Assembly (NCBI GenBank): GCA_051294905.1
Contig: CM119371.1
Coordinates: forward strand, 3,226,001-3,290,000
DNA length: 64,000 nt
Direction: 5' to 3'
From: Botryllus schlosseri
Taxonomy: Eukaryota
Positions within the stretch are counted from its first letter, which is position 1, and each line of letters starts with the position of its first letter. Shown one piece after another: positions 266 to 55,000 of the stretch. The notes below the pieces were generated by a model. It did not search any database, was not told where the DNA came from, and saw only the letters and a program-made list of their open reading frames with translations. The position numbers were made by a program, and so were the translations under genes.

Positions 266-271
266 CAACGT

Positions 272-24168: not shown

Positions 24169-24479
24169 TCGTATTCGATTTTCCAGACACCTTGCAATGA
24201 TGCTCAAAAGCTCGTCGTCGATACTGCATTCGAATAAATCCAAATAAACAAGACTTTGATTCCTTGCTGCGAGCGATCCAACGATGTGAGCTTCATCACG
24301 ATTCAATGAGATGCGATATGCGTCGATGGCGGAAAGACCTTTCATAAGGTTGTCGTCGCCCGATTCGTAGATTGCTGTATATAGTTCCATGTGAGCGTAT
24401 CCGCCGTATTTTTCAGTCTTCTGTAGTCGCAAACGGATCGATCGAAAAAGAATATGTCGCTTCTGTGTTTGATCCGAGA
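24169..24479 (-). CDS. NLR gene, HD2-to-LRR exon
   Basis: tattgcttgacag|TC (phase 1, matching the NACHT exon end)...CGA|gtgagt (phase 0); contains MELYTAIYES and the LRR SLVYLDLFECSIDDELLSIIARCL. Confidence 0.88.
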
Positions 24480-29203: not shown

Positions 29204-29306
29204 CTGCAGAAAAGAGAGCTTAAATTAGGAAATATATCAAAACTGCTTCGTCATATCGGCTGTAAGAAATTATTGCAAATGGTACCGGTACCTTCTTACA
29301 CTAGGA

Positions 29307-30289: not shown

Positions 30290-30394
30290 CACTAGGACAC
30301 TGTCCTCAAACCTAATTGTTGTAGCTACATCAGCATGACGGCCGATTTAAACCGGTCAGAGTTCGAGTGTTGCTGAATGTAACCTACGACAGTT

Positions 30395-31094
30395 GGTGCT
30401 TCTTCGATATACGCCCGAGATCAAAACAGTGTTCCCCATGACACCCGTAAATGTTTTTCCATGAACACGATATAAATTTATAAACGTCAAAATATTTTTT
30501 TCCTCGTTTGAATAGACGGATATTAGGGTTGGTGGAATGGATATATTGGTGTTGGATGTGGGTTAGGTTCAAAGTCGGGGTTAGGGTATCCCAAGAGTAG
30601 GGTTGGGGGAGAGGGGAGAATTAGGGTTGGGGAAACCCTAACCTCAACTTCAACCCTAACCCCAACCCACATCCAACTCTAAGAACCCCCTCCCCCAACT
30701 CTGATATTCCCCTTCCCAAACCCTAATTTTGAGATACCCCCAATTCAACTTTGACCCTAACCCTAACCCGCATCCAACTCTTATACCCCTCCCCCAACCT
30801 TAATATGCCCTTCTTCAACCCTAATCTTGGGATACCCTAACCCCAACTTTGACCCTAACCCACATCCAACCGTGATATCTCTCCTTCCTCTTCCCTAATA
30901 CCCCGTCGCCAACCGTAATCTTGGGATACCCTAACCCCAACTTCGACCCTAACCCACCCCCAGCCCTAATATCTGTCTCTCCAAAGGCAAAAAAAAATTT
31001 TTACGCTTATAAAATTGTATCGTGCTCATGGGAAGCACTTGCTGGTGTTACGTGAAACACTGTTTCGATCTCGGGCGTATATCGAAGAAGCGCC
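30395..31094. mobile_element. MITE copy A with (TTAGGGTT)-like internal repeats
   Basis: TIRs gg(t/c)gcttcttcgatatacgcccgagatc.aaacagtg at both ends. Confidence 0.9.
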
Positions 31095-31228
31095 AAACAT
31101 TCAGCGGGAATCATGTCGCGTTAAGGGAGACTGATCTACTACAGGGTTGGATAGATATTTGTAATGATTCATTGGAGATAATGGTGGGCTAGCCAGGATT
31201 AGATTTCGGAGAAATATGGTAACTGTCG

Positions 31229-31883
31229 GGCGCTTCTTCGATATACGCCCGAGATCGAAACAGTGTTTCACGTAACACCAGCAAGTGCTTTTTTTGCCTT
31301 TGGAGAGACAGATATTAGGGCTGGGGGTGGGTTAGGGTCGAAGTTGGGGTTAGGGTATCCCAAGATTACGGTTGGCGACGGGGTATTAGGGAAGAGGAAG
31401 GAGAGATATTACGGTTGGATGTGGGTTAGGGTCAAAGTTGGGGTTAGGGTATCCCAAGATTAGGGTTGAAGAAGGGCATATTAAGGTTGGGGGAGGGGTA
31501 TAAGAGTTGGATGCGGGTTAGGGTCAAAGTTGAATTGGGGGTATCCCAAAATTAGGGTTTGGGAAGGGGAATATTAGAGTTGGGGGAGGGGGTTCTTAGA
31601 GTTGGATGTGGGTTGGGGTTAGGGTTAAAGTTGAGGTTAGGGTTTCCCCAACCCTAATTCTCCCCTCTCCCCCAACCCTACTCTTGGGATACCCTAACCC
31701 CGACTTTGAACCTAACCCACATCCAACACCAATATATCCATTCCACCAACCCTAATATCCGTCTATTCAAACGAGGAAAAAAATATTTTGACGTTTATAA
31801 ATTTATATCGTGTTCATGGAAAAACATTTATGGGTGTCATGGGGAGCACTGTTTTGATCTCGGGCGTATATCGAAGAAGCGCC
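31229..31883. mobile_element. MITE copy B, near-identical to copy A and in the opposite orientation
   Basis: Same TIRs; the internal sequence is the reverse complement of 30395-31094 with small indels. Confidence 0.9.
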
Positions 31884-31964
31884 GAATGTTTTGCTAAGAA
31901 AACTGAGCCGTTGTCCGCAGTGTGGTTGTCGTTGTTGTTGCCGATATGGATCGTCGAGTTATTA

Positions 31965-33062: not shown

Positions 33063-33920
33063 AGTTATTATATTGTGACGTTGAAACCTTGACAGCGGCT
33101 TAACCTAAGGTCACGGAAAGGTAGTAGGACGTTCATTGATTGTGTAACAATTGGTTTGCAGCTCAACCTTTCGTGGCTCTGGAGCATTTGCCATTTCGTC
33201 AGATACCGAAATCAAAATCCAAGATTGAATACCGGATGCCGCGACGCTGCCAGAGATCGACTATTATACCAGAGACAAGAGATTGACTATTAATTCAACA
33301 CCGTGTAGTGGGCGAGTCTGATATCATAGAAATGTTGAATTAGGCGAATTGGAGGGACCGTTATACGATCGGCAACGCAGGACCATAACATCACTTTGTC
33401 AGACCCACCCTCCTCCCCGACAAAAAATCATTGGTATTGGGGAGTAGTTAGTATGATCGGTCGTGGTGTGCCATTGTGGCTTATGGGTGCGGCGGCGATT
33501 CGCCTGGAAACCCGGGGTGGCGATTCGCCTTTTTAGACCCCCCTCTGGGCCGCGATTCGCCATGTGTTCTTATGGGTGCGGTCGTGATTCGCCTTTCCAG
33601 GTATAGGCCGCGGTCGTGATTCGCCGTGAAAACTCGTGGTCGTGACTCGCCTTTTTTGCTATAGGCGGTGGCGGCGATTCGCCTGTCGTGTATTCTTACG
33701 GGATCTGTGGTGATTCGGCATGTGTTCTTATGGGTGCGGTCGTGATTCGTACTTTCGGTATAGACTGCGGGCGGCATGTCGTACTTTCAGCAAAAAAGGT
33801 GTGAAATAGTTTGCCAAGTCTAGGAATCACTTGCAAGGTAATATTTTGGTATTTAGTTTACCACAGAGCCGGCGTAGACGGCGATTCGAATATCAACAAT
33901 AACAACGCTCACGAATTAAC

Positions 33921-34876
33921 CAGTGTTGGGATCAAGTCACTACCTTCGAGTCACGAGTCATTTCGAGTCATTGCACATTTTGACTCGAGTCAAGTCAAGT
34001 CAATCGATTTTTGAAGGTGACTCGAGTCAAGTCAAGTCACTAGATTTTTGGAGGTGACTCGAGTCAAGTCGAGTCAAGTCAAGTCAAGTCACGAGTCAAG
34101 TCACAATTCAAGTCAAGTTGCCTTTTCAAAATGTGAGACATGGTTACGTAATTGAATCTTGCTAGCTGTATAAAATACAGATTGAGTGGTCATTGATTTT
34201 GAACAGATGAACGAATATAGATTTAAATGTGCAAGCAAGAAGGCGCTGTATCGCTCACATATACCTACAACTGCTAACTACGTAAGTAATTGCAGAGTCT
34301 CAGGTTATAGTTACGAGCCAAAATCGAGAAAAGAATTTATAAGATACAATACATTATGTATTTACAAATTGATTCGACCTGCGCCAATGGTTGAGGGCTA
34401 TATACACGATATTTGAATTATATTTCAATAAAACAAGAGGTTTGCTTGAGGTAAGAACAGTGAACAGAAATAAAAATTTTGCTATTAAATTGCTCTACTA
34501 TACTAGTTTGCGACAACATAAGCTGTAAGTTTCGGTCCTATGGTTTGCGGTCAATTTATTAGGGAGAGAACAATAACGACTCAATAAAACGCACGACTAA
34601 TGAATGATTGGTCGCTCTCACGGGTTACACCAGCGTTTCGCGAGCAATCTGAACATATGCAAGATACAATATTTTTTGTCGACACCGATTACTTGATGAC
34701 TTGAAATTGACTCGTGAATTTTGCTCCGAGTCACGAGTCAATCCTCATTTCTGATACGCCGAGTCAAGTCAAGTCAAGTCATTTCAGCAAAGTGACTCGA
34801 GTCAAGTCAAGTCATCCGAAAAAGGTGACTCGAGTCTGACTCGAGTCAAGTCATGACTCGAGTCATCCCAACACTG
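33921..34876. mobile_element. hAT-type MITE inserted in the left arm only of element 1
   Basis: TIRs cagtgttgggat / atcccaacactg; TSD gaattaac; the empty site (single gttaattc) is at 45823-45830 in the right arm. Confidence 0.95.
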
Positions 34877-37800
34877 GAATTAACACTTCAAATAGCTGTG
34901 AAATAGTTTGCAAAACCCCGCGATCGCTAACAAGATAATGTCTCGGTCATAACCATCTTTCACGACTTGGTGTCATAACCATACCGATCGCTCACGCGGA
35001 GAAATTTTAGTAATCAGTTTGTCACAGAACTTGATATCGCTGGTAAGATTTAACAAGTAACGAATAACAGACCGCGGTAACTTGAATAGCGACAAATTGT
35101 CACTTATTTCCGCTCTAACCCTAATCCTTTGTGAAGTGAACGCTTATTCAAAAGGGTGTGATATAATTTTAAAATCCAACGACCACTCACCGGATAATAC
35201 TTCAGACATAGCAATTCCTCATACCCGCCCACAAGGTAATATTTCGGTAATTAGTTTGTCACAGAACCGTCGCAGGCGGTGATTGGAAAACCGACAATTT
35301 GTCACTCGCCCGCGATCGCTATATGTTTCACGCCTCCAGAATAGTGGCTGACTTTAGTTGCGTGATAAGATCCATGAAAATATTCAATCAATGTGTTAGT
35401 TTATCAACTTGAAATGAAACTCACTACACAAATCAAGTCGATTCGTATCTGAATGTTTTAAATCGGTACAACTCTAATCCTTTGACAAATCCCATAACGC
35501 GTTTTTGTTGAATCGAACGTAACCCGAATATTACTGACGCCGACTTTCAGCCGCATCGAATTATTCGCACATTCCGCGCCACTGTTTTCACACTTATAGA
35601 ATCAATACCAACTATAACTCTACAAGAATCAAGAATCACAAGTATGTGCATTACACAGTTATTGTCTTTATTAACTTGAAATCAAACACTTAACAAAAAC
35701 ACGCAACTAATCATTTGGCAACTCTAGCATTACCAAAAAATTCCAGTATTGTTGATTGAAAATCCTTGAGTCATTATTATCAAAAATGTTATAGTACCGC
35801 ATCGAAATCCATTCGCGGGATGTACTAAAGGTAAATCCAGATAATCCAAAATGAAATATTTGGACTTTGACAAACATGACTACCAACTTTGATCCAGTCA
35901 TATTTCAAGATCATACTTTGAAACAATCCTTGAAACTTACAACTCTATTCACGACTGAGTTTTCCGTTTATCAAATAGAGTTTCAGTAAATACTATCGCG
36001 ATATTTAATGTGTTACTACACACAATAGAATCAATCAATGAAATACCACCTGTTGTAAATATTTCTAACTTGACAACCACTTGTGCATACCGTGATCAAG
36101 TTGCGACGCGATGAGTTAAATCGGGATATTTCAATCTATTTGTCGAAACCTTGAACAAACTATCAGGTTATTTATTGTTGTAATCGAGTGAACGGAAATA
36201 GTATTACGTCTCAACATTTTAACATCTCCCCATACACAAAAGAGTAAAATACAAAAAAACCTTGTCAAGTCAATCCGTTTGTAACTTACCCAACCAAAAC
36301 AAAAAGTATCCTTATGAAAAGTAGACAAGACTACGTGAGTAATCACCACAATCCAAAATCCATAGCAAGTTCGGTTGCATTCATAGTCCACCAACTCGTA
36401 TTTTTATTCCACTTTAAAAGTCGTTACTATTCCGCAAGACAAAGAAATTACTATGTGGTATATTTTGTAAGACAAAAGTAATTACTTCTCAGTGTCGGCG
36501 ACTTGAGATTAACATACTATGTTTGAGTATACGAGATTTGACAGTCTGACCATCGTAGTTGAGAATTCATCTCTTACAATCGAACACAGGTGTTATATCA
36601 AAAGTTATCATACTGTAAACATAAGGATTGACACATTGATTTGACGTATTTAATAGTTGATCACGACTTGATTATTAAATTATTCGCGTTAATTAAACCC
36701 GCGTTGTGTTGAAAGTTATGACAGTAACAAACTTTTCGGAAACGTTGTTATTAACATATTGATTTGTAAAACTATACTTGTCTGAAATGTTCTTGATTTG
36801 GAAGATATTCCGTGTTGGTACAAATCACTCTGCGTATTGCGGATATCAGGAAATATTTTACAAATGTAATTGTTTCCAGTAACCAAGACTAAAGACGAAA
36901 CAACAACATCGGTATTATTACATTCAACAACCAGTACAATTATTAAAATCTATCGTTTGCTATAACCGGGGCTAAAGATGTAACAATTCCATTATTCATA
37001 TATTGAAACGACTAAGTGGAGAATCATTAGGCCTATATCACAATATCGTTACTATTGAATCCAACGATTTATTGTCGGAATTTGTGACAGAGAATTGAAA
37101 CATATGCACTTTACAGAGTGTGAAAATATCACTTTGAGTATCGAGTACCGTTCGAAGCTAGCGATCAATTCTTAATCATTTCAGTAACTCCCCATTGTGC
37201 GTGCCAAATGTAAAATATCGCGAGGTTATACACTCTAAGACTTTGATTATTGCAAAAGTAAATTGTGATATGTTTGTTAGATGCATCCAATTCAACTAGA
37301 AGTGTCTAGTGCCCAACACTCGTAATATCGAAAAAGTACTTGCCACACTGTTATTTGCTAAACGTGTTTTGCATTGTTGCTCATTTCTAGTATTGATTGA
37401 AATCATTCTCGAACCCTCAAATAGTAATTCCCGACATGAAACCAAGCCGCTGAAAGTCGTTACCATCACGAAGATACAATGTGCACGATGTTTGTCAAAT
37501 GTGTCCTACCTGGCCAACAGAAAACAATTTTCACTCACTCGAAATGAAACCAATGTGATGGTCTCCATTCGATATTTTGTTCGTGTCAAATACTTTGCAA
37601 TGAACACATTTGCGTGGTTGAGCTTTGCCATCATCAAGCTGTCATTTGTATCTTTTAATTAACCGACATTTAGCGATTGGTGAACATACCGACCGATACA
37701 CAGTCACTTCGAAATACTCCGTTGATCGTAATTTCCATCATCATAATAATCGAAGTACAATTGTTTCGAATCGATAGACTGGTTGAGCTTTACATCATCA

Positions 37801-39259
37801 GACTGCCATCTGTACATCAAGAATACATCCGTCTTGTAACTGGGTCGTTTACCTAACCGAGTTGTATGCACCGTTTGATATTTAGCGATTGCAGAACATA
37901 CCATTTCGAAATACTACGTTGATCTCAATTCCTTTGTCGTGATAATCGAAGTATATTTGTTTCGATTTCATAAAAACCAACTTTTCTATGACATGATAAA
38001 TTTTTGAAAAGTTATACTTAGAAGGTTGGTGCATATCGCGAAAAATAATATACCATGCATATTGATATTGCTACTCCATTGATCGGTATTTTCACGCGAG
38101 TCGATTTTCAAATGAGTAAAATTTATTACATGAGTTTCTCCGCTTAATGTAAATGAAAACTCAGTCGTCTTTTAACATCACAAAGACATTGATAAAATGT
38201 AAGCAATCAAACACAACACTTTGTACGACACTAATTATTGTTCCACACATCTCATTTCATACTAAGTGTATACGAAAGATATTCATGTTACACGAAAATA
38301 TTCGCTCATGCTACAAACCTGTACAATGATTGGTGGTGTAAGGCCAGCCCAATTGTGGTATCCATCCGAGTTTAGTTAACACAATTTACGACACCGAGGT
38401 CGCCTCATCTTTCGTAAGACAACAAACCAAGGCTTCAGGATATGTCCATGTCATAACAATAAATCAGCTACTCCAACAACAGAGTACATATGTTTTCTAG
38501 CACGGTGCTTACATCTTACACACAAATCAACCCACTTTGCTAACGAAAAGTGCTGAGTCATCACAACAATACAACTAAAACATACTATCATACAAAATGG
38601 CCGTTATAGTCACCAATGGTACATCGTACCAGTAACAAGTCTCGAGAATCAAGTTTTCCAAAAAACGTGAAAGTATTTCTACACCAAGTCGTTATGTTGA
38701 CGAAGACGTATATTGTAATATCATGATCGATTTACATTCGTTGGTCACAAAATGTCACTACTCTAAATAATTATTTTTCACTCAAAGCCTACTTGTCACC
38801 ATTCGTTTCATCAAGCACGAGTTCAAGAAACCTGCTACGACGTGAATTGATATTTTTATGTTGTGTAAATAGGTAATAATCAATTTTAGTAACACTATAT
38901 CAACATCATCGAGTTGTGCGAATAGATTTACATGTGGTCTTGTGGTTTTAATCGAAGTATACAGCACGGTCTAATGTAGAGTCATCTCTATTGTACAACA
39001 ACTCGGTAATCGAAATGCATTAAAATTTAAACAACGATCTTGTTTCGTCGCACCAAAAATATGTTTACTATCACGATACTCTGCACAGGTCGTGTAAATC
39101 CTTTTCACACTCGTAATAGTATACCAACGGATACCGGCGACAACGTTTAACAATACCAACGACACTAAATATACGATACCTACCCAAGTAAAATTACCAT
39201 TTTCACCTGGAGGTCGGTCGTTACCCGAGTAGAAATACCATTGTCCTTTGGAGATTTAT

Positions 39260-39740
39260 CGTTTACCCAGTGTAACAAACCCCTTACCCTTTGGAAATCT
39301 ATTTTTTCTCTGGGTAACAAACCTTTTTCACTTGGAAATATATTTTTTCTCTGGTTAACAAACCTTTTTCACTTGGAAATATATTTTTTCTCTGGGTAAC
39401 AAACCTTTTTCACTTGGAAATATATTTTTTCTCTGGGTAACAAATCTTTTTCACTTGGAAATATATTTTTTCCGCGGGTAACAAACCTTTTTCCCTGAGC
39501 AAGAAACCATTTTCACTTGGTGGTCCATCGTTTTACCCGAGTAAAAATATCATTTTCTTTTGGAGATCCGGCGTTTACCCAGTGTAACAATACATTTTCA
39601 CTTGGAAAAATACTTTTACCTAGAGTAACTAATCATTTTCTCCTGGGTAACAAACCCTTTTCGTCTGGAAACTATCATTTACCTGAGTACCAATACAGTT
39701 TTCACTTGGAAATCTACCTTCTCCCTGGGTAACAATATCA
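39260..39740. repeat. ~39-40-bp tandem array inside the arms (aaacctttttcacttggaaatatattttttctctgggtaac)
   Basis: Several near-perfect units plus degenerate flanks; mirrored at ~42200-42680 and present in element 2 at ~54720-55260 and ~57640-58180. Confidence 0.9.
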
Positions 39741-41128
39741 GTTTCGTTTTGAAAACTGACAACCACACCGGACAATTTGATATTTTTGTATATTGTTACA
39801 ACGGGCAGCGACAAAATATACACCAACAACGACTCCGATACATTTGTCTAATCAAATATTCACTTGATCTGATGCATCCCATCAAAATCATTGGTTACTC
39901 ACATACAATAACAATGAACTGTTGTACATCGACATGTATGTTTTCGGAATTGGCGAATAAATGGGTTTCCGATATGTCCGTGATGTCCGGGTTCGTGCTT
40001 TGGATTTTCCAGAGTCAAAATGCCTGAATAAAACACCTCCTCGACTTTGGTAGCTGGTTGATACACGGATAATGGTATTCGGAAAACGGATGAATTTATG
40101 TTCCCCATCGCGCCAACAACTCCGGGTTACTTGTGAGTTTCCTCAGCTCTGTTTACTATATTGTGTCTTTACTGATCAATACATGTCGCTCCAGTAAGCT
40201 GAAGCCGGATCACTAATATGAGAAAGTGTGTGGGGGCCTGATCCGGATATTCACTCATGAACCAACGACCAATATTCAAGTAAACATGTTACAGACAGTG
40301 TTTTGTCTCCATGAAAAATACCAACCATCACATACAAGTAACGTCACGATTGTTCACAAGTATTCGCGTAAACCAGGTGTACATACAATGTGTCGGTGTA
40401 CAAACATCACGGAAAACAAATTCATGTTCTCAAGTCTCATCATGCGACGACTCTGTACATTCAATGTGGGCATAGATGACTTGGGGACAGGCAAGCAGCC
40501 ATATTTGGACGTAACATGGTCTTAGTATGAACCGGCCTCCGCCCAACTTGTGAAAAATGAATCTCACACGAGTACAATCCTTTCACGGTTTACACCTTGA
40601 TTTTGCAAGATTGTTTGGATTCTCAGGTAGACTTGCATCGTGATCCGGACCTCGATATAATCGTGTTGCGTAACTCACTCAATCCCTGCGTATCGTTGGT
40701 CATAACCTGCTAACTTTTTCGCCGAGACCGCAGTGTTTCACCTGGTTTTATGTATTTGGCGATCACCATCGTTATCAATCTTTCAGGTGATGAATATGCC
40801 GGATGTTGCTACTCCCACATAACGACTCCAGCTAAACATCGTGAGCAGTGACTCCGGATTGAAATCGTAAACAGGGACTCTGTGTGTGTGTGTGAATCTC
40901 GAGTTCGAATACGATTAGATAATGTAATCCAAGGTGTGTCTCTGCGGGTTGAAGACTGATTTCTTGTTAACCACTCCGCAAGAGGGTGCTGTCTCGTAAT
41001 TCTACATGTCGTTATAAAACGTGGTTGGAAACTTTTGGTCTAGTTGATCCAGCTACGTATTGAAACGGTGCACTCACGCAGACCACTGAGAAAACGTTGT
41101 CGTTACCTGACTATATCCACGAGTAATT

Positions 41129-41404
41129 ATGGGACTACGCATAACGTTCCATAGATTCCTCTGGCCCCACACCGTGGTTTTACGACACAGACAAGATGCA
41201 GCGGTGGAAATATTGAAAATGAAAAACGATACCTTGGTGACATTTGATTTGGATTTTACACCTGATGAACCATACACTCGATTGGTACATTGGGATGACA
41301 ACTCTATCGTCGAGGTCGAGGGAAAAGAAATGTACAGATTTGTTGGTGTTGTGGATATTCAGCGAAAATCAGGGTATATGGTTGTGTATGGTTCGCATAT
41401 TTGA
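41129..41404 (+). CDS. 91-aa hypothetical protein in the loop of element 1
   Basis: Intact ATG..TGA; aligns without gaps to 56371-56096 at 55/91 identities (hand count), with synonymous changes (FTPDEPY: cct/ccc, gat/gac, cca/cct). Confidence 0.75.
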   Translation: MGLRITFHRFLWPHTVVLRHRQDAAVEILKMKNDTLVTFDLDFTPDEPYTRLVHWDDNSIVEVEGKEMYRFVGVVDIQRKSGYMVVYGSHI

Positions 41405-44400
41405 CTGAGAATATATCGGTATGCATAATGCACTGTCCATTGTGTCATGACGTGTGTCATCTATGGCCACATTGAATGTACAGAGTCGTCGCATGATGAG
41501 ACTTGAGAACATGAATTTGTTTTCCGTGATGTTTGTACACCGACACATTGTATGTACACCTGGTTTACGCGAATACTTGTGAACAATCGTGACGTTACTT
41601 GTATGTGATGGTTGGTATTTTTCATGGAGACAAAACACTGTCTGTAACATGTTTACTTGAATATTGGTCGTTGGTTCATGAGTGAATATCCGGATCAGGC
41701 CCCCACACACTTTCTCATATTAGTGATCCGGCTTCAGCTGACTGGAGCGACATGTATTGATCAGTAAAGACACAATATAGTAAACAGAGCTGAGGAAACT
41801 CACAAGTAACCCGGAGTTGTTGGCGCGATGGGGAACATAAATTCATCCGTTTTCCGAATACCATTATCCGTGTATCAACCAGCTACCAAAGTCGAGGAGG
41901 TGTTTTATTCAGACATTTTGACTCTGGAAAATCCAAAGCACGAACCCGGACATCACGGACATATTGGAAACCCATTTATTCGCAAATTCCGAAAACATAC
42001 ATGTCGATGTACAACAGTTCATTGTTATTGTATGTGAGTAACCAATGATTTTGATGGGATGCATCAGATCAAGTGAATATTTGATTAGACAAATGTATCG
42101 GAGTCGTTGTTGGTGTATATTTTGTCGCTGCCCGTTGTAACAATATACAAAAATATCAAATTGTCCGGTGTGGTTGTCAGTTTTCAAAACGAAAATGATA
42201 TTGTTACCCAGGGAGAAGGTAGATTTCCAAGTGAAAACTGTATTGGTACTCAGGTAAATGATAGTTTCCAGACGAAAAGGGTTTGTTACCCAGGAGAAAA
42301 TGATTAGTTACTCTAGGTAAAAGTATTTTTCCAAGTGAAAATGTATTGTTACACTGGGTAAACGCCGGATCTCCAAAAGAAAATGATATTTTTATTCGGG
42401 TAAAACGATGGACCACCAAGTGAAAATGGTTTCTTGCTCAGGGAAAAAGGTTTGTTACCCGCGGAAAAAATATATTTCCAAGTGAAAAAGATTTGTTACC
42501 CAGAGAAAAAATATATTTCCAAGTGAAAAAGGTTTGTTACCCAGAGAAAAAATATATTTCCAAGTGAAAAAGGTTTGTTAACCAGAGAAAAAATATATTT
42601 CCAAGTGAAAAAGGTTTGTTACCCAGAGAAAAAATAGATTTCCAAAGGGTAAGGGGTTTGTTACACTGGGTAAACGATAAATCTCCAAAGGACAATGGTA
42701 TTTCTACTCGGGTAACGACCGACCTCCAGGTGAAAATGGTAATTTTACTTGGGTAGGTATCGTATGTTTAGTGTCGTTGGTATTGTTAAACGTTGTCGCC
42801 GGTATCCGTTGGTATACTATTACGAGTGTGAAAAGGATTTACACGACCTGTGCAGAGTATCGCGATAGTAAACATATTTTTGGTGCGACGAAACAAGATC
42901 GTTGTTTAAATTTTAATGCATTTCGATTACCGAGTTGTTGTACAAAAGAGATGACTCTACATTAGACCGTGCTGTATACTTCGATTAAAACCACAAGACC
43001 ACATGTAAATCTATTCGCACAACTCGATGATGTTGATATAGTGTTACTAAAATTGATTATTACCTATTTACACAACATAAAAATATCAATTCACGTCGTA
43101 GCAGGTTTCTTGAACTCGTGCTTGATGAAACGAATGGTGACAAGTAGGCTTTGAGTGAAAAATAATTATTTAGAGTAGTGACATTTTGTGACCAACGAAT
43201 GTAAATCGATCATGATATTACAATATACGTCTTCGTCAACATAACGACTTGGTGTAGAAATACTTTCACGTTTTTTGAATAACTTGATTCTCGAGACTTG
43301 TTACTGGTACGATGTACCATTGGTGACTATAACGGCCATTTTGTATGATAGTATGTTTTAGTTGTATTGTTGTGATGACTCAGCACTTTTCGTTAGCAAA
43401 GTGGGTTGATTTGTGTGTAAGATGTAAGCACCGTGCTAGAAAACATATGTACTCTGTTGTTGGAGTAGCTGATTTATTGTTATGACATGGACATATCCTG
43501 AAGCCTTGGTTTGTTGTCTTACGAAAGATGAGGCGACCTCGGTGTCGTAAATTGTGTTAACTAAACTCGGATGGATACCACAATTGGGCTGGCCTTACAC
43601 CACCAATCATTGTACAGGTTTGTAGCATGAGCGAATATTTTCGTGTAACATGAATATCTTTCGTATACACTTAGTATGAAATGAGATGTGTGGAACAATA
43701 ATTAGTGTCGTACAAAGTGTTGTGTTTGATTGCTTACTTTTTATCAATGTCTTTGTGATGTTAAAAGACGACTGAGTTTTCATTTACATTAAGCGGAGAA
43801 ACTCATGTAATAAATTTTACTCATTTGAAAATCGACTCGCGTGAAAATACCGATCAATGGAGTAGCAATATCAATATGCATGGTATATTATTTTTCGCGA
43901 TATGCACCAACCTTCTAAGTATAACTTTTCAAAAATTTATCATGTCATAGAAAAGTTGGTTTTTATGAAATCGAAACAAATATACTTCGATTACCACGAC
44001 AAAGGAATTGAGATCAACGTAGTATTTCGAAATGGTATGTTCTGCAATCGCTAAATATCAAACTGTGCATACAACTCGGTTAGGTAAACGACCCAGTTAC
44101 AAGACGGATGTATTCTTGATGTACAGATGGCAGTCTGATGATGTAAAGCTCAACCACTCTATCGATTCGAAACAATTGTACTTCGATTATTATGATGATG
44201 GAAATTACGATCAACGGAGTATTTCGAAGTGACTGTGTATCGGTCGGTATGTTCACCAATCGCTAAATGTCGGTTAATTAAAAGATACAAATGACAGCTT
44301 GATGATGGCAAAGCTCAACCACGCAAATGTGTTCATTGCAAAGTATTTGACACGAACAAAATATCGAATGGAGACCATCACATTGGTTTCATTTCGAGTG

Positions 44401-47250
44401 AGTGAAAATTGTTTTCTGTTGGCCAGGTAGGACACATTTGACAAACATCGTGCACATTGTATCTTCGTGATGGTAACGACTTTCAGCGGCTTGGTTTCAT
44501 GTCGGGAATTACTATTTGAGGGTTCGAGAATGATTTCAATCAATACTAGAAATGAGCAACAATGCAAAACACGTTTAGCAAATAACAGTGTGGCAAGTAC
44601 TTTTTCGATATTACGAGTGTTGGGCACTAGACACTTCTAGTTGAATTGGATGCATCTAACAAACATATCACAATTTACTTTTGCAATAATCAAAGTCTTA
44701 GAGTGTATAACCTCGCGATATTTTACATTTGGCACGCACAATGGGGAGTTACTGAAATGATTAAGAATTGATCAATTGAATTGTTTCAAAGTATGATCTT
44801 GAAATATGACTGGATCAAAGTTGGTAGTCATGTTTGTCAAAGTCCAAATATTTCATTTTGGATTATCTGGATTTACCTTTAGTACATCCCGCGAATGGAT
44901 TTCGATGCGGTACTATAACATTTTTGATAATAATGACTCAAGGATTTTCAATCAACAATACTGGAATTTTTTGGTAATGCTAGAGTTGCCAAATGATTAG
45001 TTGCGTGTTTTTGTTAAGTGTTTGATTTCAAGTTAATAAAGACAATAACTGTGTAATGCACATACTTGTGATTCTTGATTCTTGTAGAGTTATAGTTGGT
45101 ATTGATTCTATAAGTGTGAAAACAGTGGCGCGGAATGTGCGAATAATTCGATGCGGCTGAAAGTCGGCGTCAGTAATATTCGGGTTACGTTCGATTCAAC
45201 AAAAACGCGTTATGGGATTTGTCAAAGGATTAGAGTTGTACCGATTTAAAACATTCAGATACGAATCGACTTGATTTGTGTAGTGAGTTTCATTTCAAGT
45301 TGATAAACTAACACATTGATTGAATATTTTCATGGATCTTATCACGCAACTAAAGTCAGCCACTATTCTGGAGGCGTGAAACATATAGCGATCGCGGGCG
45401 AGTGACAAATTGTCGGTTTTCCAATCACCGCCTGCGACGGTTCTGTGACAAACTAATTACCGAAATATTACCTTGTGGGCGGGTATGAGGAATTGCTATG
45501 TCTGAAGTATTATCCGGTGAGTGGTCGTTGGATTTTAAAATTATATCACACCCTTTTGAATAAGCGTTCACTTCACAAAGGATTAGGGTTAGAGCGGAAA
45601 TAAGTGACAATTTGTCGCTATTCAAGTTACCGCGGTCTGTTATTCGTTACTTGTTAAATCTTACCAGCGATATCAAGTTCTGTGACAAACTGATTACTAA
45701 AATTTCTCCGCGTGAGCGATCGGTATGGTTATGACACCAAGTCGTGAAAGATGGTTATGACCGAGACATTATCTTGTTAGCGATCGCGGGGTTTTGCAAA
45801 CTATTTCACAGCTATTTGAAGTGTTAATTCGTGAGCGTTGTTATTGTTGATATTCGAATCGCCGTCTACGCCGGCTCTGTGGTAAACTAAATACCAAAAT
45901 ATTACCTTGCAAGTGATTCCTAGACTTGGCAAACTATTTCACACCTTTTTTGCTGAAAGTACGACATGCCGCCCGCAGTCTATACCGAAAGTACGAATCA
46001 CGACCGCACCCATAAGAACACATGCCGAATCACCACAGATCCCGTAAGAATACACGACAGGCGAATCGCCGCCACCGCCTATAGCAAAAAAGGCGAGTCA
46101 CGACCACGAGTTTTCACGGCGAATCACGACCGCGGCCTATACCTGGAAAGGCGAATCACGACCGCACCCATAAGAACACATGGCGAATCGCGGCCCAGAG
46201 GGGGGTCTAAAAAGGCGAATCGCCACCCCGGGTTTCCAGGCGAATCGCCGCCGCACCCATAAGCCACAATGGCACACCACGACCGATCATACTAACTACT
46301 TTGGGGCCCCATACGGTGATATGCCCGACTTTTCGGGTAAGAAGTCCATTTGGCTTTAGTTTTTGGGCTGCTACTTATCAGCGAGTTTTGTGTACTGTTT
46401 GGCAAGTCAGCTTTAGTCGTCTAGACTCGCGAAAGACGAAATTTTTATATAATACATGACTAAATCGGTCAATATGATCAGGAATTGGATATATATGTTG
46501 TTATCATTTTTTTATTTCCTCTCTGGTCATTTAACCAGATTTATTGGTAGAACTGAGTGAGTTGTCTTGGAAAATGTAGGGGCCGTTAATAATGATGAAA
46601 CAACTTCGGGCGGACCCGTTGGTATAATGATTTTATCGCATGATATTATTTAGTGACCTCCTGTCTGCTATGTCGAAAGATACTGGCAAATAATTTTTCC
46701 CTGCGAGATGACATCTGTCTTGTGGGATTCAAATTTCTTGGACAGGAACGTTCAGCGTCATATATTTAGCGGCTATGGACATATTGGACAATATATCGAA
46801 GTTTTCGGTCAGTATAGGGGCGGTCTTTTTCAGCCAAGGATTTCTCTCTGGCGATTTTCCTGACACACTTCTCGGGGTCGCATGTGACATGGCCTAAAAC
46901 CACATATATCTTGGTACGTTGTGGCACCGTAATGGCCGAGGCCGAAATGTCAATTTCTCTAAATAATGCTCATCTGTTCTTGGGGAGGTAACCAATACTC
47001 AGGATATTTGGCAACAATAAATCGCGCGCAACGCGGAACATTTATGAAAATGTTGGATATCTATGAATTTCCCAAATTTCCAATTTCGTTAGGTTTGGGG
47101 TACCACAGAAGCCTGAACACTAATGAAATCTTCAAGACTTCCAGGCCTGGAAAAACTTCTTCACATATTTTGAACATCATTGTAAAGGTGCCTTCAGCAG
47201 ACCCTTCCCCAAATTTACAAACCGTATTGAATAAAGAGCATTATACTCAC

Positions 47251-49000: not shown

Positions 49001-52000
49001 AGTAGTATAGTAGATCGCTCACATGACGCGCTTTTTAACATGGGGTAGTATAGGGCCCGCTGGTGAGGTGCCGCGAAACTCGTGTTGGTGATGGCACCCT
49101 TTTGACCCCCCCTTCCGCTGGTGAGGTGCCATGGGTTCTTATGGGATCTCTGGTGATGGTACCCTTTCAGGTATAGGCTGCGTCAGTGATGTGCCGTGAA
49201 AACTCGTGTTGGTGAGTCGTATTTTCGGGTATAGGCTGTGTCGGTGATGTGCCTGTCATGTATTCTTACGGGATCTCTGGTGATGTGCCATTGTCTCTTA
49301 TGGTATCTCTGGTGACGGCACCCTTTCAGGTATAGGCTGCGTCGGTGATGTGTCTGTCATGTATTCTTACGGGGTCTCTGGTGATTCGCCATGTGTTCTT
49401 ATGGGTGCGGTCATGAATCGCCCTTTCGGGTCTAGTCAACTCTCGCGCTGTGTTGAATAGGTATCAGGAATAGTAAATAGTCACGTGATTGATTCTTAGT
49501 TAATGTGTACATTACAAATTATTAAATATGACTGATTCGAGTTAATCCCAACGTTTACGGTGAGTACGACAATGATATATCGTTATTCTTATGGCGGGGG
49601 TGGCATGCGGCTCTTATGTCTTACGGCGGGGGTCGCATGCGGCTGGGAAATCCGGGGTGGCAAGCGGCTCTTTTGTCTTATGGCGGGGGTGGCATGCGGC
49701 TATTTGTGTCTTGTGGTCGCACGGTAATCCTTTCAGGTAGAGATGATTTGACTAACGTTGTGGGTATAGGCGCGGCGGCACGGTGTTGAATATGTACCAG
49801 ATGAATAGTCATGTGAATGTACCTTTGTTAATGTGTATATCGTAAATTATTATATATGATGTAGTTTAGTCGTGACAAACGACCGATCGTCTCAAGTCTT
49901 TTCGCGCTGTGTCTATTGATTTCTACGTAACCTGAATAGTACTTTCAGATCGGATTATTCGCACCTTGTATACCGCTGTTTCGCACCTACAGAATAGTCT
50001 GCTGTTCACAACCACAACAAGAATCACAAGTATACACATTTATACATTCATTCATTACTGTCAAATCAAACTAAAGCACGCACAATCGTATCATTAACTT
50101 TTTTTTACCATCACCCAAAATAATTCAAGTATTCCTTGGCTGAAAATCCTTGAGTCCTTATTATCAAAAATGTTATGGTGCGGTGTCGGAATCCATTCGC
50201 AGGATGTACTAAAGGTAAATTCAGATAATCCACCCGCGATCGCTCACAAGATAATACCTAAGACATAACCATCGCTCGCGACTCGCTGTTACATGCATGC
50301 CGATCGTTAACAATGTAATATTTTGGTAATTGGTTTGCCACAGAGCCGGCGTAGACGGTGATTCGAATATCAACAATAGCAGCGTTCACAAACCAACACT
50401 TCAAAAACGCGTGAAATAGGTTACAAATCCCACGATTGCTCACAAGATAACACCAAAGACATAGCCATTTCTCGCGTCTTGTCATTACATACATCCCAAT
50501 CGCTACAGTGTAATATGTCGATGGTTGTTACTATCAAGTAATAAGTAATGAATAACAGTACCAGCGCAGACCGTGATTCGAAAACCGACAATTTGACACT
50601 TGCACGCGATCGCTATATGTTTTGACACTTCATAACAGTCGTTGACTTTGCGTGATACAAATCATGAAAATATTCAATCAGTGTGTCAATTTGTCAACTT
50701 GAAATGAAACTTACTACACAGCTCAAGTTGATTCGTATCTGAATGTGTTAATTCGGTACAATTCTAATTATTTTGAGTAATCTTTTTAACGCGATCAGTT
50801 GATTCGAACGTAACCTGAATATTACTGACTCCAACTTCAGCCGCATCGAATTATTCACACATTCCACACCGCTGTTTCACACCTATAGAGTCAACACCAA
50901 CTAAGTCAACAAGAATCAAGAATCACAAGTACGCACATACAATCATTGCATTTATCAACTTGAAATCAAACAATTAACAAAAACATGCAACTAATCATTT
51001 GCCAACTCTAGCATTACCAAAAAATTCAGGTATTGTTGATTGAAAATCCTCGAGTCCTTATTATTAAAAATACGGGGTCGGAATCTATTCGCGAGATGTA
51101 CAAAAGGTAAATTCAGATAATCCAAAATGGAATATTTTGACTTTGGTATAGTGTGAATTGAAATAGGACTGACAAACATGACTACCAACTTTCACGCAGT
51201 CACATTTCGAGATTTCGGGCATATTGATTTGAAACAAGTATTGAAACATCACAACTCTATTCACGAATTGACTTTACGTATGTCAAAGAGAGTTTCAGAA
51301 ATACTATCGCTATGACATCTCAACATATTAACATCTTGTCATACGCAAAAGAGTAAAATACAAAAACCTTGTCAAGTCAATCCGTTTGTAACTTACCAGA
51401 CCAACTCAAACAGTATCAGTATGAAAAACAACCAAACATACACGAATCCATACAATCACTAAAACCTTAAATCCGTAACAAGCTTGGTTGTATTCATATC
51501 CCTACGACGCATCTTTTTTATTCAACTTGAAAAGTCGTTACTATTCTGTAAGATAGAGGAATTACTACGCGGTATATTCTGCAAGACAAACTAATTACTA
51601 CTCGGTATATTTTGTAAGACAAAAGTAATTACTTCTCAGTGTCGGCGACTTGAGATTAACATAATATGTTTGAGTATACGAGATTTGAAAGTCCGACCAA
51701 CGTAGTTGAGAATTCATTTCTTACAATCGAACGATGGTGTTATATTCAAAGTTATCATGCTGTGAACATAAGGATTGACACATTGATTTGACATATGAGA
51801 TTTTGTAATAGTTGATCATTACTTTATTATTAAATTATTTGCGTTAATTAGACACGGCGTTGTGCTAAATGTTATGACAGCAACAAACTTTTCAGTGCCA
51901 TTGTTCTTAACATATTAAGTTGTAAAACTATACGTGTCTGAAATGTTCTTGATTGGAGAATGACTCCACCTCGATAAAAATCACTCTGCGTATCGCGATA

Positions 52001-55000
52001 TCAGGAAATATTTTACAAATGTAATTGTTTCCAGTAACCAAGACTAAAGATGTAACAGCAATATCGGTATTATTACATTCAACAACCAGTACAATTATTA
52101 AAATCTATCGTTTGCGATAAACAACGCTAAAGATGCAATAATTCCATTATTCATACATTGAACATCCGATACAAAATGCTTTATTATCCCGATTCGCAAC
52201 GGGTAATTGAAACGACTAAGTGTAGAGTCAGTATATCACAATGAGACGTCGTTACTATTGAATCCAGCAATTGATACGATTTATTGCAGGGATTTGTGAC
52301 AGCGCATTGAAACATACACAACTTACAGAGTGTGAAAATATCACTTTGGGTATCGAGTACCCTTTGAAGCGCGCGATCAATACATAATTCCAGTCGCACT
52401 CTCTAAGACATTGTGAAGTCTACGGATTTACACTTCAAGACTTTGATCAACACAGAAGCAATTTGGAATGTCTTTACTGGACGCATCCTATTCTACTAGA
52501 CTTGAGTATACGCAAAACTCATAGCATTAACAAAATCGCAATAGGCGCTACACTGAAATTTACAAAATGTGTTTGTATTCTTGCTCAAAGTAGTGATCAT
52601 GAATTATCATTTGAATCTTCTAAAGTAATTGTAATCGTAAAACCAAACTTGCGAAAGTCATTACCATAACAGAAGAATATTGTAGGTTGCTTGCTAAATG
52701 TATGCCGGAAATATTTGTAGAACGCTCACGACCAAAGAAATCGGAAATTGTCATTCATCAAAGTAAATGTCGTCACAATACTCTGCCGCTAAAAGACGTT
52801 ACTCGTATGTGATTGAATCGCCGGTGATTAACTCGCTAAATCAAACCCTAAGAAATTTCACTCACTCATCGGATATTAAACAGCGTCGCTTAATCGGTGT
52901 AGTTCGTTTTTTTTTTCTAAATGCAAATCATACCTAGCCAAGAGAAAACAATTTTCACTCACCCGGTAATGAAACCAAGCGGTGGCTCTTCGTTCGATAT
53001 TTTGTTTGCGTCAAATACTTTGCAATGAACACATTTGAGTGGTTGAGCTTTACATCATCAAGCTGTCATCTGTAAATCGAGATTACATCCGACTTGTAAC
53101 TCTATCGTTTAACTAACCGAGTTGTATGCACAGTTTGATATTTTGGTCATTTAGTGATTGCTGAACATACCAAACGATGCACACCCACCTCCGAAATACT
53201 GCGTTGATCTTAATTTCCATCATCGTGATAATCGAAGTACATTTCCCTCGAATTCATAACAACCAACTATGACATGATAGATTTTTGACAAGTTTACTTA
53301 GAAGGTTTGTTGCATATCGCGAAAAATAATATACCACTCACATTGATACTTTTACTCCATTGATCGATATTGTCAAACGAGTAAAATTTATTACTTGAGT
53401 TTCTCCGCTTACTATATGTAAATGTAAACTCAGTCGTCTTTCAAAACCATAACAAACAATGATAAAAAGTAGGCAATCAAACGCTGCAAGTTTAACTTTT
53501 GTAGGTTGTGTATGATTACCCCACGCAACTCATTTCATACCAAAGGTATATGAAATATATTCATGTTACACGAAAATACTCGATATTCCCATGCTACAAA
53601 CCTGTACAATGATTGGTGGTGCTTTCAAACTGTTTCGATACCTCAAGAACTTTATTGTCTGAATGGTTGTTCATGTATCTTAATAATCAAGTAGTTCAAC
53701 ACAGAACTAGTATTAACAGAAACACCAGAGTTGTTTACACAAAAGTTTGTATGTGTACAGTATACGAATACCATGTGTAAGTCCAGCACAATTGTGGTAT
53801 CCATACGAGTTTAGTTAACACAATTTACGACACCGAGGTCGCGTCATCTTTCGTAAGACAACAAACCAAGGCTTCAGGATATGTCCATGTCATAGCAATG
53901 AATCAGCTACTCCAACAACAGAGTGCATATGTTTTCTAGTTACGGTGCTTACATCTTACACACAAATCAATCTACTTTGCTAACGAAATGTGGTGAGTCA
54001 TCATATGGTTATCCTCACTAGTAAAACATACTATCATACAAAATGGTCGTTATAGTTTGCACACCAACGGTACATCGTACAAGTAACAAGTCTCGAGAAT
54101 CCAGTTATTCAAAAAACGTGAAAGTATTTCTACACCAAGTCGTTATGTTGACGAAAGCGTATATTGTAATATCATGATCGATTTGCATTCGTTGGTCACA
54201 AACTGTCACTACTCTAAATAATTCTTTTTCACTCAAACACAAACGCATACTTGTCACCATTCGTTTTCATCAAGTACGAGTTCAAGAAACTTACTACGAC
54301 ATGAATTTTTATTTTTATATTGTGTAAATAGGTATTAATTAATTCAAGTAACACTATATCAACATCATCGAGTTGTGCTAATAGATTTACATGTGGTCTT
54401 GTGGTTTTCGTCGGGACATACAGCACGAACTAACTGTAGACTCCTCTCTGTTGTACAGCTACTCGGTAATCGAAATGCATTAACATGTAAACAACGATCT
54501 TGTTTCGTCACACCAAAAATATGTTCACTGTCGCGATACTCCGCACAAGACGTGCATAGCCTTTTCACACTCGTAATAGTATACCAACGTCAAGCGATAA
54601 CGTTTAACAAGACCAACGACACTGAACCCACGACGTTTACCTATGTAAAATTACCACTTTCACTTCTCAGTCCATCGTTTACCTGACTAAACATATTATT
54701 CTCCTTTGGAGATCTGACGTTTACCCAGAGTAAGAAACCATTTTCACTTGTAAATATATTTTTTCCTTGGCTAACAAACCTTTTTTCACTTGGAAATATA
54801 TTTTTTCTCTGGTTAACAAACCTTTTTTCACTTGGAAATATATTTTTTCTCTGGTTAACAAACCTCTTTCACTTGGAAATATATATTTTTCCTCTGAGCA
54901 ACAAACCATTTTCATTGGAAATATATTTTTCCCTGAATAACAACCCATTTTCACTTGTAAATATATTTTTCCCTCAGCAACAAACCTTTTTCACTTGGAA

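What the first reader, a model, noticed from the sequence alone, without database searches (positions are those of the whole stretch)
41129..41404. Conserved orphan 91-aa gene carried in the unpaired loop of both giant palindromes
Seen: the loop ORF of element 1 and 56371-56096 of element 2 have the same length, align without indels, and share 55/91 residues. Many changes are conservative (V/I, L/I, D/E, S/T) or synonymous, while the flanking DNA is full of indels. I recognise no family; the alternating hydrophobic pattern suggests a small beta-rich fold. Inference: this cargo gene was under purifying selection. The loop is one of the few parts whose transcript could not fold into long dsRNA, so the gene may help the element exploit or interfere with a helper polintovirus, or modulate the host.
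Basis: partly seen in the sequence, partly recalled or inferred. Interest (0 to 1): 0.85.

Follow-up and report, generated by a model that had tools for sequence, protein, structure and literature searches.

The report
Orphan gene inside palindromic Maverick-like transposon
A small 91-amino-acid gene of no known family, which shows the marks of natural selection, sits in the only unpaired stretch of a gene-less, hairpin-shaped mobile element whose ends look like those of virus-like Maverick transposons; one of the two copies here is broken and its function is unknown.

Summary
The ORF at 41129-41404 (+) is real and intact.

The substitution pattern is that of a coding sequence. dN/dS is 0.33, against 0.52-2.2 in the other five frames. 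In 0 of 20,000 random-substitution trials did amino-acid identity reach the observed value. The ORF is the longest indel-free block of the element-to-element alignment, although it is the most diverged long block. Six public proteins of 91-98 aa (71-98% identical) lie on 1-2 kb contigs.

No family, fold or longer relative was found. Both AlphaFold models were unusable.

Element 1 (33443-46300) has 5'-AGTAGT...ACTACT-3' ends and a perfect 6-bp target duplication, the published Maverick/Polinton end signature. None of the 149 ORFs scanned carries a Pfam domain. The inverted repeats come in two tiers: outer ones are identical, inner arms are 99.5% identical. The loop is inverted between the two elements.

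My reading: a genuine orphan gene carried by a multi-copy, non-autonomous Maverick-type element. A role in exploiting a helper is inferred and not shown. RNA evidence is thin.

The parts
41129..41404 (+). Intact 91-codon orphan ORF (P0001), single exon, ATG to TGA. The N-terminal 22 residues are basic (pI 12); the rest is acidic (pI 4.6).
56096..56371 (-). Element-2 copy of the ORF. It is colinear without indels and shares 55 of 91 residues, but has an in-frame TAA at codon 22 (56308-56306).
40481..41455 (.). Loop (spacer) of element 1, 975 nt, between the inner inverted arms. It holds the ORF, a TATAAA at 41013-41018 (116 nt upstream of the ATG, with no ATG in between) and a conserved non-coding block.
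40771..40870 (.). Best-conserved block of the loop (about 87% identical between elements; highest word depth in the three contig-type runs). No conserved reading frame.
33443..46300 (.). Element 1, 12,858 bp, ends 5'-AGTAGT...ACTACT-3'. Layout: outer TIR, one-sided segment, inner arm, loop, inner arm, outer TIR.
33437..33442 (.). Left copy of the 6-bp target-site duplication TTGGGG of element 1.
46301..46306 (.). Right copy of the 6-bp target-site duplication TTGGGG of element 1.
33443..35927 (.). Outer TIR, left, of element 1. It has 0 mismatches to the right TIR over 478 + 1051 nt and is interrupted by a nested insertion at 33921-34876.
44780..46300 (.). Outer TIR, right, of element 1.
35928..37162 (.). 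One-sided segment of element 1, absent from the right half. It is homologous in direct orientation to part of the one-sided segment of element 2.
37163..40480 (.). Inner arm, left, of element 1. It has 16 mismatches in 3318 nt to the right arm and contains 41-nt tandem repeats.
41456..44773 (.). Inner arm, right, of element 1.
49001..60664 (.). Element 2. The left end is AGTAGT at 49001. Parts: outer TIR 50083-51217 / 59530-60664 (0 of 1135 mismatches); one-sided segment 51218-53363; inner arms 53364-55989 / 56907-59532 (11 of 2626 mismatches); loop 55990-56906. The right TIR is cut at 60664.
55990..56906 (.). Loop of element 2, 917 nt. It is inverted relative to the one-sided segment when compared with element 1.

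Best explanation
The 91-codon ORF is a genuine, single-exon protein-coding gene of no known family. It is the only coding cargo of a multi-copy family of non-autonomous Maverick/Polinton-type transposons.

Shown:
- The element has Maverick-type ends (AGTAGT...ACTACT) and a 6-bp target duplication.
- It has no recognisable gene of its own.
- It has a two-tier inverted-repeat body: identical outer TIRs of 1.1-1.5 kb and inner arms of 2.6-3.3 kb that are 99.5% identical.
- It has a ~1-kb loop whose orientation differs between the two elements here.
- The ORF evolved under purifying selection along most of the divergence between the two elements.

Inferred:
- The element is integrated, and probably copied, by the integrase and polymerase of an autonomous Maverick supplied in trans.
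- The inner arms are kept alike by recombination or gene conversion, which also flips the loop.
- The gene is transcribed from within the loop (TATAAA 116 nt upstream in element 1), so its coding part cannot pair with an arm.
- The small protein has a basic N-terminal tail and an acidic, probably beta-rich body. It acts in trans for the family, most likely by engaging helper or host machinery, so copies with a broken gene can still spread.

My odds: real gene under selection, about 0.8. Maverick-type non-autonomous element, about 0.75. Trans-acting role in the element's own propagation, about 0.35.
For: Coding signature:
- dN/dS is 0.33 in frame, against 0.52-2.17 in the other frames. Codon-position differences are 30/15/35.
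- 0 of 20,000 random-substitution trials reached the observed 55 of 91 identities.
- The ORF is the longest of 71 ungapped blocks despite 70% identity.
- None of 126 control frame-blocks in the rest of the elements is both open and as biased.
- Of the 8 ORF variants among the 40 best-supported differences shown by read laying (110 more not shown), 5 are synonymous third-position changes and 3 are I>V, D>N, Y>H.

Relatives:
- Six public proteins in three 90% clusters are 71-98% identical. Five are 91 aa with the same start and stop; one has a 7-residue N-terminal extension.
- They lie on contigs of 965-2005 nt, about the size of a loop.

Family size:
- 39, 141 and 32 contig pieces at 80% likeness or more were laid on the loop in three runs, under two organism labels.

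Element identity:
- Ends and target duplication match the (AGT)2//(ACT)2 plus 6-bp signature in PMC8097293.
- The same AGTAGT stands at the left end of element 2 and at a third terminus at 60665.
- The flanks of elements 1 and 2 are unrelated, so these are separate insertions.

No other genes:
- 0 Pfam hits in 35 ORFs of 75 aa or more. These were 35 of 54 listed; left out were the ORF itself and 18 right-arm mirror images.
- 0 Pfam hits in 114 of 115 ORFs of 45-74 aa.

Two tiers:
- 0 of 2664 outer mismatches against 27 of 5944 inner mismatches; Poisson P = 5.6e-6.

Loop inversion:
- The one-sided segments are direct repeats, while the ORFs are on opposite strands.
- Contigs in two runs join 40520 to 41443 on opposite strands.
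Against: - The element-2 copy has a stop at codon 22 although its outer TIRs are identical. A broken copy was therefore probably inserted or kept, and the gene is not needed in cis.
- dN/dS rests on one DNA pair only. No DNA of the other copies could be fetched.
- The six public proteins are biased towards open frames, because gene callers report only those.
- RNA evidence is thin. 25 single-cell RNA reads came from about 3% of one run. None was 99% or more like element 1, 13 were only partly on it, and both strands were hit. The other 'RNA?' runs are guesses.
- No fold, domain or longer relative was found.
- No helper Maverick is in the window and no genome is held.
- A target duplication could be checked for one element only.
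Confidence: 0.6

Rival explanations
1. Relic gene. The ORF was a working accessory gene of an ancestral, gene-bearing element. Its coding signature is inherited, and today the copies decay neutrally and do nothing.
For: One of the two copies here is broken. RNA reads are few and none matches element 1 closely. There is no promoter or poly(A) signal conserved between the two loops. dN/dS of 0.33 is compatible with a mix of past constraint and recent neutral decay.
Against: Start, stop and length are kept in five of the six public proteins (the sixth only adds seven residues at the N-terminus) down to 71% identity. Under random substitution at the divergence seen here, only 6.8% of trials stay free of stops; the mean is 2.6 stops, against 0 or 1 observed. 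The identical outer TIRs suggest recent activity of the family.
Confidence: 0.17
2. Captured host fragment. The ORF is a piece of a host beta-propeller (WD40-type) gene picked up by the element, about two blades long. It acts, if at all, as a decoy or by assembling with itself.
For: The only non-family hit among 1.84 billion representatives is a 694-aa WD40-repeat protein (E 1.4e-7 summed over 5 stretches). hhalign aligns residues 26-74 to one repeat unit at 29% identity, probability 49%. Models predict only beta strands.
Against: No Pfam WD40 match appeared even at E up to 10. The E-value comes from adding near-identical repeats of one target. No other WD40 protein scored. The 'longer' word search found nothing. 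Foldseek gave no propeller.
Confidence: 0.08
3. Nucleic-acid function. The conserved block serves DNA or RNA, for example as a hairpin-loop processing signal, a replication or packaging signal, or part of a long hairpin-RNA locus that feeds small-RNA pathways. On this reading the open frame is incidental.
For: The locus is a long, near-perfect inverted repeat with a ~1-kb loop. RNA reads fall on both strands. The best-conserved part of the loop (40771-40870) is non-coding.
Against: The ORF block is the least conserved long block at the base level (70%), yet it is free of indels and biased to third-position and conservative changes. That pattern is expected for a protein, not for a DNA or RNA signal. 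No Rfam family matched.
Confidence: 0.07
4. Artefact. The palindromes are assembly errors of long reads and the ORF similarity is chance.
For: Near-perfect palindromes are a known failure mode of long-read assembly (my own knowledge, not a tool result).
Against: Two elements about 80% alike share the same architecture. The arms differ at 16 and 11 sites. There is a perfect target duplication and a nested insertion with its own 8-bp duplication in one arm only. The loop is held by runs of 11 studies and by independent public contigs.
Confidence: 0.03

Closest known systems
Maverick/Polinton self-synthesising transposons (polintoviruses)
   Same: 5'-(AGT)2...(ACT)2-3' ends, a perfect 6-bp target duplication and long terminal inverted repeats (PMC8097293 passages; PMC3014272 passages).
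   Different: No protein-primed polymerase, integrase, ATPase, protease or capsid gene, and no Pfam domain at all. The body is a nested palindrome. The single conserved gene is an orphan. In the passages I read, non-autonomous Polintons are mentioned only for Tlr1 (PMC5499653) and reported absent in the anole.
Foldback-type elements (Drosophila FB, FB-NOF; Galileo)
   Same: Very long, internally repetitive inverted arms around a central spacer that may carry a gene (Galileo: abstract seen in the listing; FB-NOF recalled).
   Different: Those belong to other superfamilies (Galileo: P-element, by its abstract) and have longer target duplications (recalled). Here the ends and the 6-bp duplication are of the Maverick type, and no transposase is present.
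Snap-back defective genomes of protein-primed linear DNA viruses (adenovirus incomplete particles; recalled, no paper read)
   Same: Both halves are inverted copies of one end of the genome, as expected from strand switching during strand-displacement replication. The length is close to, but below, a helper genome.
   Different: These elements are integrated with target duplications and form diverged subfamilies that all keep the architecture. They also carry their own selected gene.
Few-gene dependants of larger mobile elements or viruses (transpovirons, satellites)
   Same: A small element with helper-type ends and one or a few private genes would depend on the helper's machinery.
   Different: No helper, particle or dependence has been shown here. 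The likeness is functional analogy only.
Endogenous hairpin-RNA (hpRNA) loci of animals (recalled)
   Same: Kilobase-scale near-perfect inverted repeat with a loop. Read-through transcription would give long double-stranded RNA.
   Different: Transposon ends, a target duplication and a selected ORF in the loop. Small RNAs were not examined.

Membership tests
Maverick/Polinton (as a non-autonomous derivative) | Perfect 6-bp target-site duplication | tested here: met
   TTGGGG at 33437-33442 and 46301-46306. Only element 1 could be tested, because the right end of element 2 is missing.
Maverick/Polinton (as a non-autonomous derivative) | Conserved end motif 5'-(AGT)2 ... (ACT)2-3' or (AG)3 ... 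(CT)3 | tested here: met
   AGTAGT/ACTACT at both ends of element 1, at the left end of element 2 (49001) and at a third terminus (60665). The motif comes from PMC8097293, where it is described for vertebrates.
Maverick/Polinton (as a non-autonomous derivative) | Terminal inverted repeats | tested here: met
   Outer TIRs of 1529 nt (element 1, nested insert removed) and at least 1135 nt (element 2), with 0 mismatches.
Maverick/Polinton (autonomous) | Protein-primed family B polymerase, retrovirus-like integrase and a capsid/packaging module | tested here: not met
   0 Pfam matches in 149 ORFs of 45 aa or more. No ORF of 130 aa or more in the elements has a domain. It is therefore not an autonomous member.
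Maverick/Polinton (as a non-autonomous derivative) | An autonomous element with matching ends in the same genome | not testable with these tools
   No genome is held for this window. None is present in the window.
Protein-coding gene | Open frame kept, with excess of synonymous and conservative change across copies | tested here: met
   One of the two genomic copies is broken.
Protein-coding gene | Transcribed on the sense strand and translated | tested here: inconclusive
   A few single-cell RNA reads whose direction fits plus-strand RNA lie over 40899-41222 and 41259-41366. They come from non-identical copies, and the other strand is hit as well. Translation is not testable here.
WD40 repeat (PF00400) | Match to the repeat profile above threshold | tested here: not met
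   No Pfam WD40 row at E up to 10. There is only one summed hit to a repeat protein, with hhalign probability 49%.
TriTu immunity protein (PF24689) | Score at or above the gathering cut-off (27 bits) | tested here: not met
   12.9 bits, E 0.1. 3 of 5 members give such weak rows.
Foldback elements (FB) | Long arms made of tandem sub-repeats, and a target duplication of the MULE type (9 bp, recalled) | tested here: not met
   41-42-nt tandem repeats occupy only 0.2-0.3 kb of each inner arm. The duplication is 6 bp.
Hairpin-RNA (endo-siRNA) locus | Small RNAs mapping to the arms | not testable with these tools
   Only 50 nt of each arm were laid. No small-RNA run was examined.

The most novel reading that the evidence does not exclude
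These elements are satellite-like parasites of an animal Maverick (polintovirus). On this reading they are snap-back, near-genome-length defective genomes that kept only the helper's ends. They propagate as a lineage because they encode one private 91-aa protein, which hijacks or tunes the helper's replication, packaging or the host's silencing. The recombining arms flip the loop, and on read-through they could make long double-stranded RNA against relatives. This would be an animal counterpart of the virophage and transpoviron relationships.
Probability: 0.15. Interest if true: 0.85.

Novelty: new variant of a known kind. Interest (0 to 1): 0.55.

Why it matters
Mavericks/Polintons are widely held to be viruses, but little is known about elements that depend on them. 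In the papers I could search, non-autonomous Polintons are barely mentioned.

A multi-copy, gene-less derivative that nevertheless keeps one selected orphan gene would be a concrete handle on how such dependants work. The protein can be expressed and its partners sought. The two-tier palindrome offers a natural test of how protein-primed elements regenerate their ends, and of how long inverted repeats survive and recombine in an animal genome. If the gene proves inert, the locus is still a clean example of a nested-palindrome Maverick derivative.

Tried and rejected
- **Whole genome.** None is held, so no census of copies was possible.
- **Longer and shorter relatives.** None found.
- **Profile search of 1.84 billion representatives.** It returned only the family's own cluster and one WD40-repeat protein. 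I treat that hit as a summed-repeat artefact or a weak lead.
- **Family libraries.** Pfam, PHROGs and NCBIfam gave nothing below E 0.06. The TriTu row (12.9 bits against a cut-off of 27) was rejected.
- **ESM Atlas.** No usable hit.
- **PDB by sequence.** Best E 0.59.
- **Structure.** AlphaFold2 with 5 and with 8 sequences gave pLDDT 45.8 and 42.2, which is unusable.
- **The search for related loci.** One pattern-only false match in viral contigs (L001) and none in metagenome contigs.
- **Rfam over 33000-61000.** No match.
- **Sequencing runs.** No RNA holder is listed on record.
- **A second ORF on the loop's other strand** (40812-41039). It has a similar C-terminal peptide in both loops but no ATG in either. 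I rejected it as a gene.
- **Earlier findings of this scan.** Nothing found by place, sequence or words.
- **Poly(A) signal.** No AATAAA/ATTAAA within 1.2 kb downstream in element 1, and no TATA at the matching place in element 2.

Full report
**The observation**

The window is eukaryotic. No prokaryote-style genome is held for it. It carries an NLR-type gene with NACHT and NOD2 winged-helix domains at 27756-29219. The nearest Atlas cluster for that gene is mostly cnidarian.

At 41129-41404 (+) there is an open 91-codon frame from ATG to TGA. The proposed partner at 56371-56096 (-) aligns to it codon for codon without indels. It shares 55 of 91 residues and 196 of 276 bases.

The partner has an in-frame TAA at codon 22. 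The longest open frame there is only 66 codons, from a GTG.

**Is it coding?**

- Differences between the two copies fall 30/15/35 on codon positions 1/2/3. Nei-Gojobori dN/dS is 0.33 in frame (0.25-0.31 over the C-terminal two thirds), against 0.52-2.17 in the five other frames.
- I placed the observed 80 substitutions (44 transitions, 36 transversions) at random on the ORF. Mean amino-acid identity was 42.4 (sd 3.1, maximum 54) in 20,000 trials; the observed value is 55. Only 6.8% of trials stayed free of stops, with a mean of 2.6 stops.
- In a global alignment of inner arm plus loop of the two elements there are 71 ungapped blocks. The block 41120-41413 (294 nt) is the longest, although at 70% identity it is the most diverged of the seven longest. 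The next longest are 281 nt at 93% and 176 nt at 94%.
- As a control I ran the same substitution test on 126 frame-by-block combinations from the outer repeat, the one-sided segment and the inner arm. The best z was 3.2, in a frame with 4-5 stops. The ORF scores about 4.1 with 0 and 1 stops.
- Only two copies exist in the window (tblastn).

**Relatives elsewhere**

The word-indexed search found three clusters of 91-aa proteins at 98, 75 and 71% identity. Their members add three more sequences, one with a 7-residue N-terminal extension.

All lie on contigs of 965-2005 nt. That is about the size of a loop, and is what one expects if assemblies break at the inverted arms; this is my inference. 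Thirty-five positions are invariant in all eight sequences.

These six proteins are not a fair sample of intactness, because gene callers report only open frames. Searches for longer and shorter forms found nothing.

Reads and contigs of four public runs were laid on the loop at 80% likeness or more. They show a multi-copy family: 39, 141 and 32 contig pieces in three runs, under two organism labels. One piece has 2 differences over 327 nt. Of the 8 ORF variants among the 40 best-supported differences listed (110 more were not shown), 5 are synonymous third-position changes and 3 are I>V, D>N and Y>H.

**Expression**

No listed holder is on record as RNA. One raw single-cell RNA run gave 25 reads from about 3% of the run. 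None was 99% or more like element 1, and 13 were only partly on it.

Reads whose direction fits plus-strand RNA cover 40899-41222 and 41259-41366. Reads of the other direction cover the arm junction, 40611-40682, 41007-41258 and 41367-41474. Family copies are therefore transcribed weakly on both strands. This does not show that the ORF of element 1 is expressed or translated.

In element 1 a TATAAA lies 116 nt upstream of the ATG with no ATG in between. It is not kept in element 2, and no poly(A) signal follows within 1.2 kb.

**What the protein is**

It belongs to no known family.

- Pfam gives only a sub-threshold TriTu row (12.9 bits against a cut-off of 27), seen in 3 of 5 members. PHROGs and NCBIfam give nothing below E 0.06.
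- A profile search of 1.84 billion representatives finds only the family itself and one 694-aa WD40-repeat protein. The E-value of 1.4e-7 for that protein is summed over five near-identical repeats. hhalign aligns residues 26-74 to one repeat at 29% identity with probability 49%. I keep this as a weak lead only.
- The Atlas, the PDB by sequence and Foldseek give nothing.
- Two AlphaFold2 runs gave pLDDT 45.8 and 42.2, predicting only beta strands.
- The protein is 10.8 kDa. The N-terminal 22 residues are basic (pI 12) and the rest is acidic (pI 4.6).

**What carries it**

Element 1 spans 33443-46300 (12,858 bp). It begins AGTAGT, ends ACTACT, and is flanked by a perfect 6-bp duplication, TTGGGG.

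This is the end signature reported for Mavericks: 5'-(AGT)2//(ACT)2-3' with perfect 6-bp target duplications (PMC8097293, passages read; a 6-bp duplication and long TIR also in PMC3014272, passages).

Element 2 starts with AGTAGT at 49001 in an unrelated flank. Its right repeat stops at 60664, exactly where a third, different sequence beginning AGTAGT starts. AGTAGT occurs 44 times on both strands of the window, so three hits exactly at breakpoints are not chance.

No Maverick gene or any Pfam domain is present:
- 0 hits in 35 of the 54 ORFs of 75 aa or more. The 19 left out were the ORF itself and 18 right-arm mirror images.
- 0 hits in 114 of the 115 ORFs of 45-74 aa in the left halves and loops.

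The elements are thus non-autonomous by content.

**Architecture**

The 'giant palindrome' has two tiers.

- Outer terminal repeats are identical: 0 of 478 and 0 of 1051 mismatches in element 1, and 0 of 1135 in element 2.
- Inner arms differ at 16 of 3318 and 11 of 2626 sites.
- Given the inner rate, zero outer mismatches has a Poisson probability of 5.6e-6.
- Between the left outer repeat and the inner arm lies a one-sided segment (35928-37162 in element 1; 51218-53363 in element 2). It has no partner on the right.

The two one-sided segments are homologous in direct orientation, while the ORFs are on opposite strands. The loop is therefore inverted in one element relative to the other. Contigs in two runs join 40520 to 41443 on opposite strands, which fits copies with the other loop orientation, though contigs cannot resolve the full structure.

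The arms of elements 1 and 2 are about 82% alike overall, and the loops about 75%.

My inference is that the outer repeats are renewed at each round of copying or insertion. The inner arms are kept alike more slowly by recombination or gene conversion, which also flips the loop. Independent loss of the one-sided segment from different arms is an alternative I cannot exclude.

**Mechanism and its limits**

The best-supported reading is a genuine orphan gene kept by selection in the lineage of source copies of a non-autonomous Maverick-type family.

The copy in element 2 is broken although its outer repeats are identical. The gene is therefore probably not needed in cis; if it acts, it acts in trans. 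What it does is unknown.

I commit, at about 0.35, to a role in the family's own propagation, through engagement of helper or host machinery. The reason is that a gene-less dependant has little other reason to keep one frame open through 25-30% protein divergence. The rivals are a relic of an ancestral gene, a captured propeller fragment, a nucleic-acid signal and an assembly artefact. They are scored in their own section.

**Literature**

I read passages of PMC8097293, PMC3014272, PMC6431247, PMC2836005, PMC5499653 and the preprint 10.1101/2025.02.07.637071, and the listings.

A search for the phrases 'non-autonomous/nonautonomous Polinton/Maverick' and 'Polinton-/Maverick-derived' found 4 papers. 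Only one uses 'non-autonomous polintons', for Tlr1. I did not see a description of a Maverick derivative with nested palindromes and a private gene. Repbase and subscription journals were not searchable.

The comparisons with adenovirus defective genomes, FB-NOF and hpRNA loci are recalled, not read.

Noticed in passing
window 33921-34876: A 956-nt insertion sits in the left outer repeat of element 1 only. It has an 8-bp target duplication (GAATTAAC at 33913-33920 and 34877-34884) and inverted ends CAGTGTTGGGAT. It looks like a hAT-type miniature element that landed after the repeats were last made identical.
   Followed up: partly
window 60665-64000: A third terminus beginning AGTAGT starts exactly where the right outer repeat of element 2 breaks off (flank CGATTG). 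The 3.3 kb that follow are AT-rich, with repeated 'TTACGTCAT'-type units and no ORF of 90 aa or more. This is probably another Maverick-type element inserted into element 2, with the rest lying beyond the window.
   Followed up: partly
window 40771-40870 (and 56560-56650 in element 2): The best-conserved block of the loop: about 87% identity between elements, and the highest word depth in all three contig-type runs. It has no shared reading frame and its function is unknown. It is a candidate cis signal.
   Followed up: partly
window 38336-39129 and 39505-39812 versus 53775-54600 and 55049-55329: Parts of the inner arms are 90-96% identical between elements 1 and 2, while neighbouring stretches are 65-80%. 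This reflects either recent exchange between the two nearby elements or constrained arm sequence.
   Followed up: no
window 39272-39493 / 42443-42664; 54720-55038 / 57858-58176: Tandem repeats of 41-42 nt (5.4 and 7.8 copies) lie inside each inner arm, about 1 kb from the loop.
   Followed up: no
window 40520 and 41443: Contigs in two runs (X9, X19) join these two places on opposite strands. Copies with another loop orientation or other arm boundaries therefore exist.
   Followed up: partly
window 41023-41349, run X9: A run under a second organism label holds a piece with only 2 differences in 327 nt. The family is thus shared almost unchanged between two labels: close relatives, mixed samples or transfer.
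   Followed up: no
window 33443-46300 and 49001-60664: Two separately inserted members of one family (unrelated flanks, about 80% alike) lie 2.7 kb apart, in the same orientation with respect to their one-sided segments, with a third element inserted into the second. This may be a local trap or a preferred target region.
   Followed up: no
window 27756-29219 (-) and 24091-24561 (-): An NLR-type gene: NACHT (E 6.5e-17) and NOD2 winged-helix domains in a 487-codon open stretch, with a weak LRR-like piece downstream. The nearest Atlas cluster is mostly cnidarian.
   Followed up: no
window 168-5143 and 30389-31889: There are GC-rich arrays with 41-, 65- and 106-nt spacing arranged as inverted repeats (2338-4987), and a separate small palindrome with arms of 375 and 236 nt. 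They are unrelated in sequence to the two elements.
   Followed up: no
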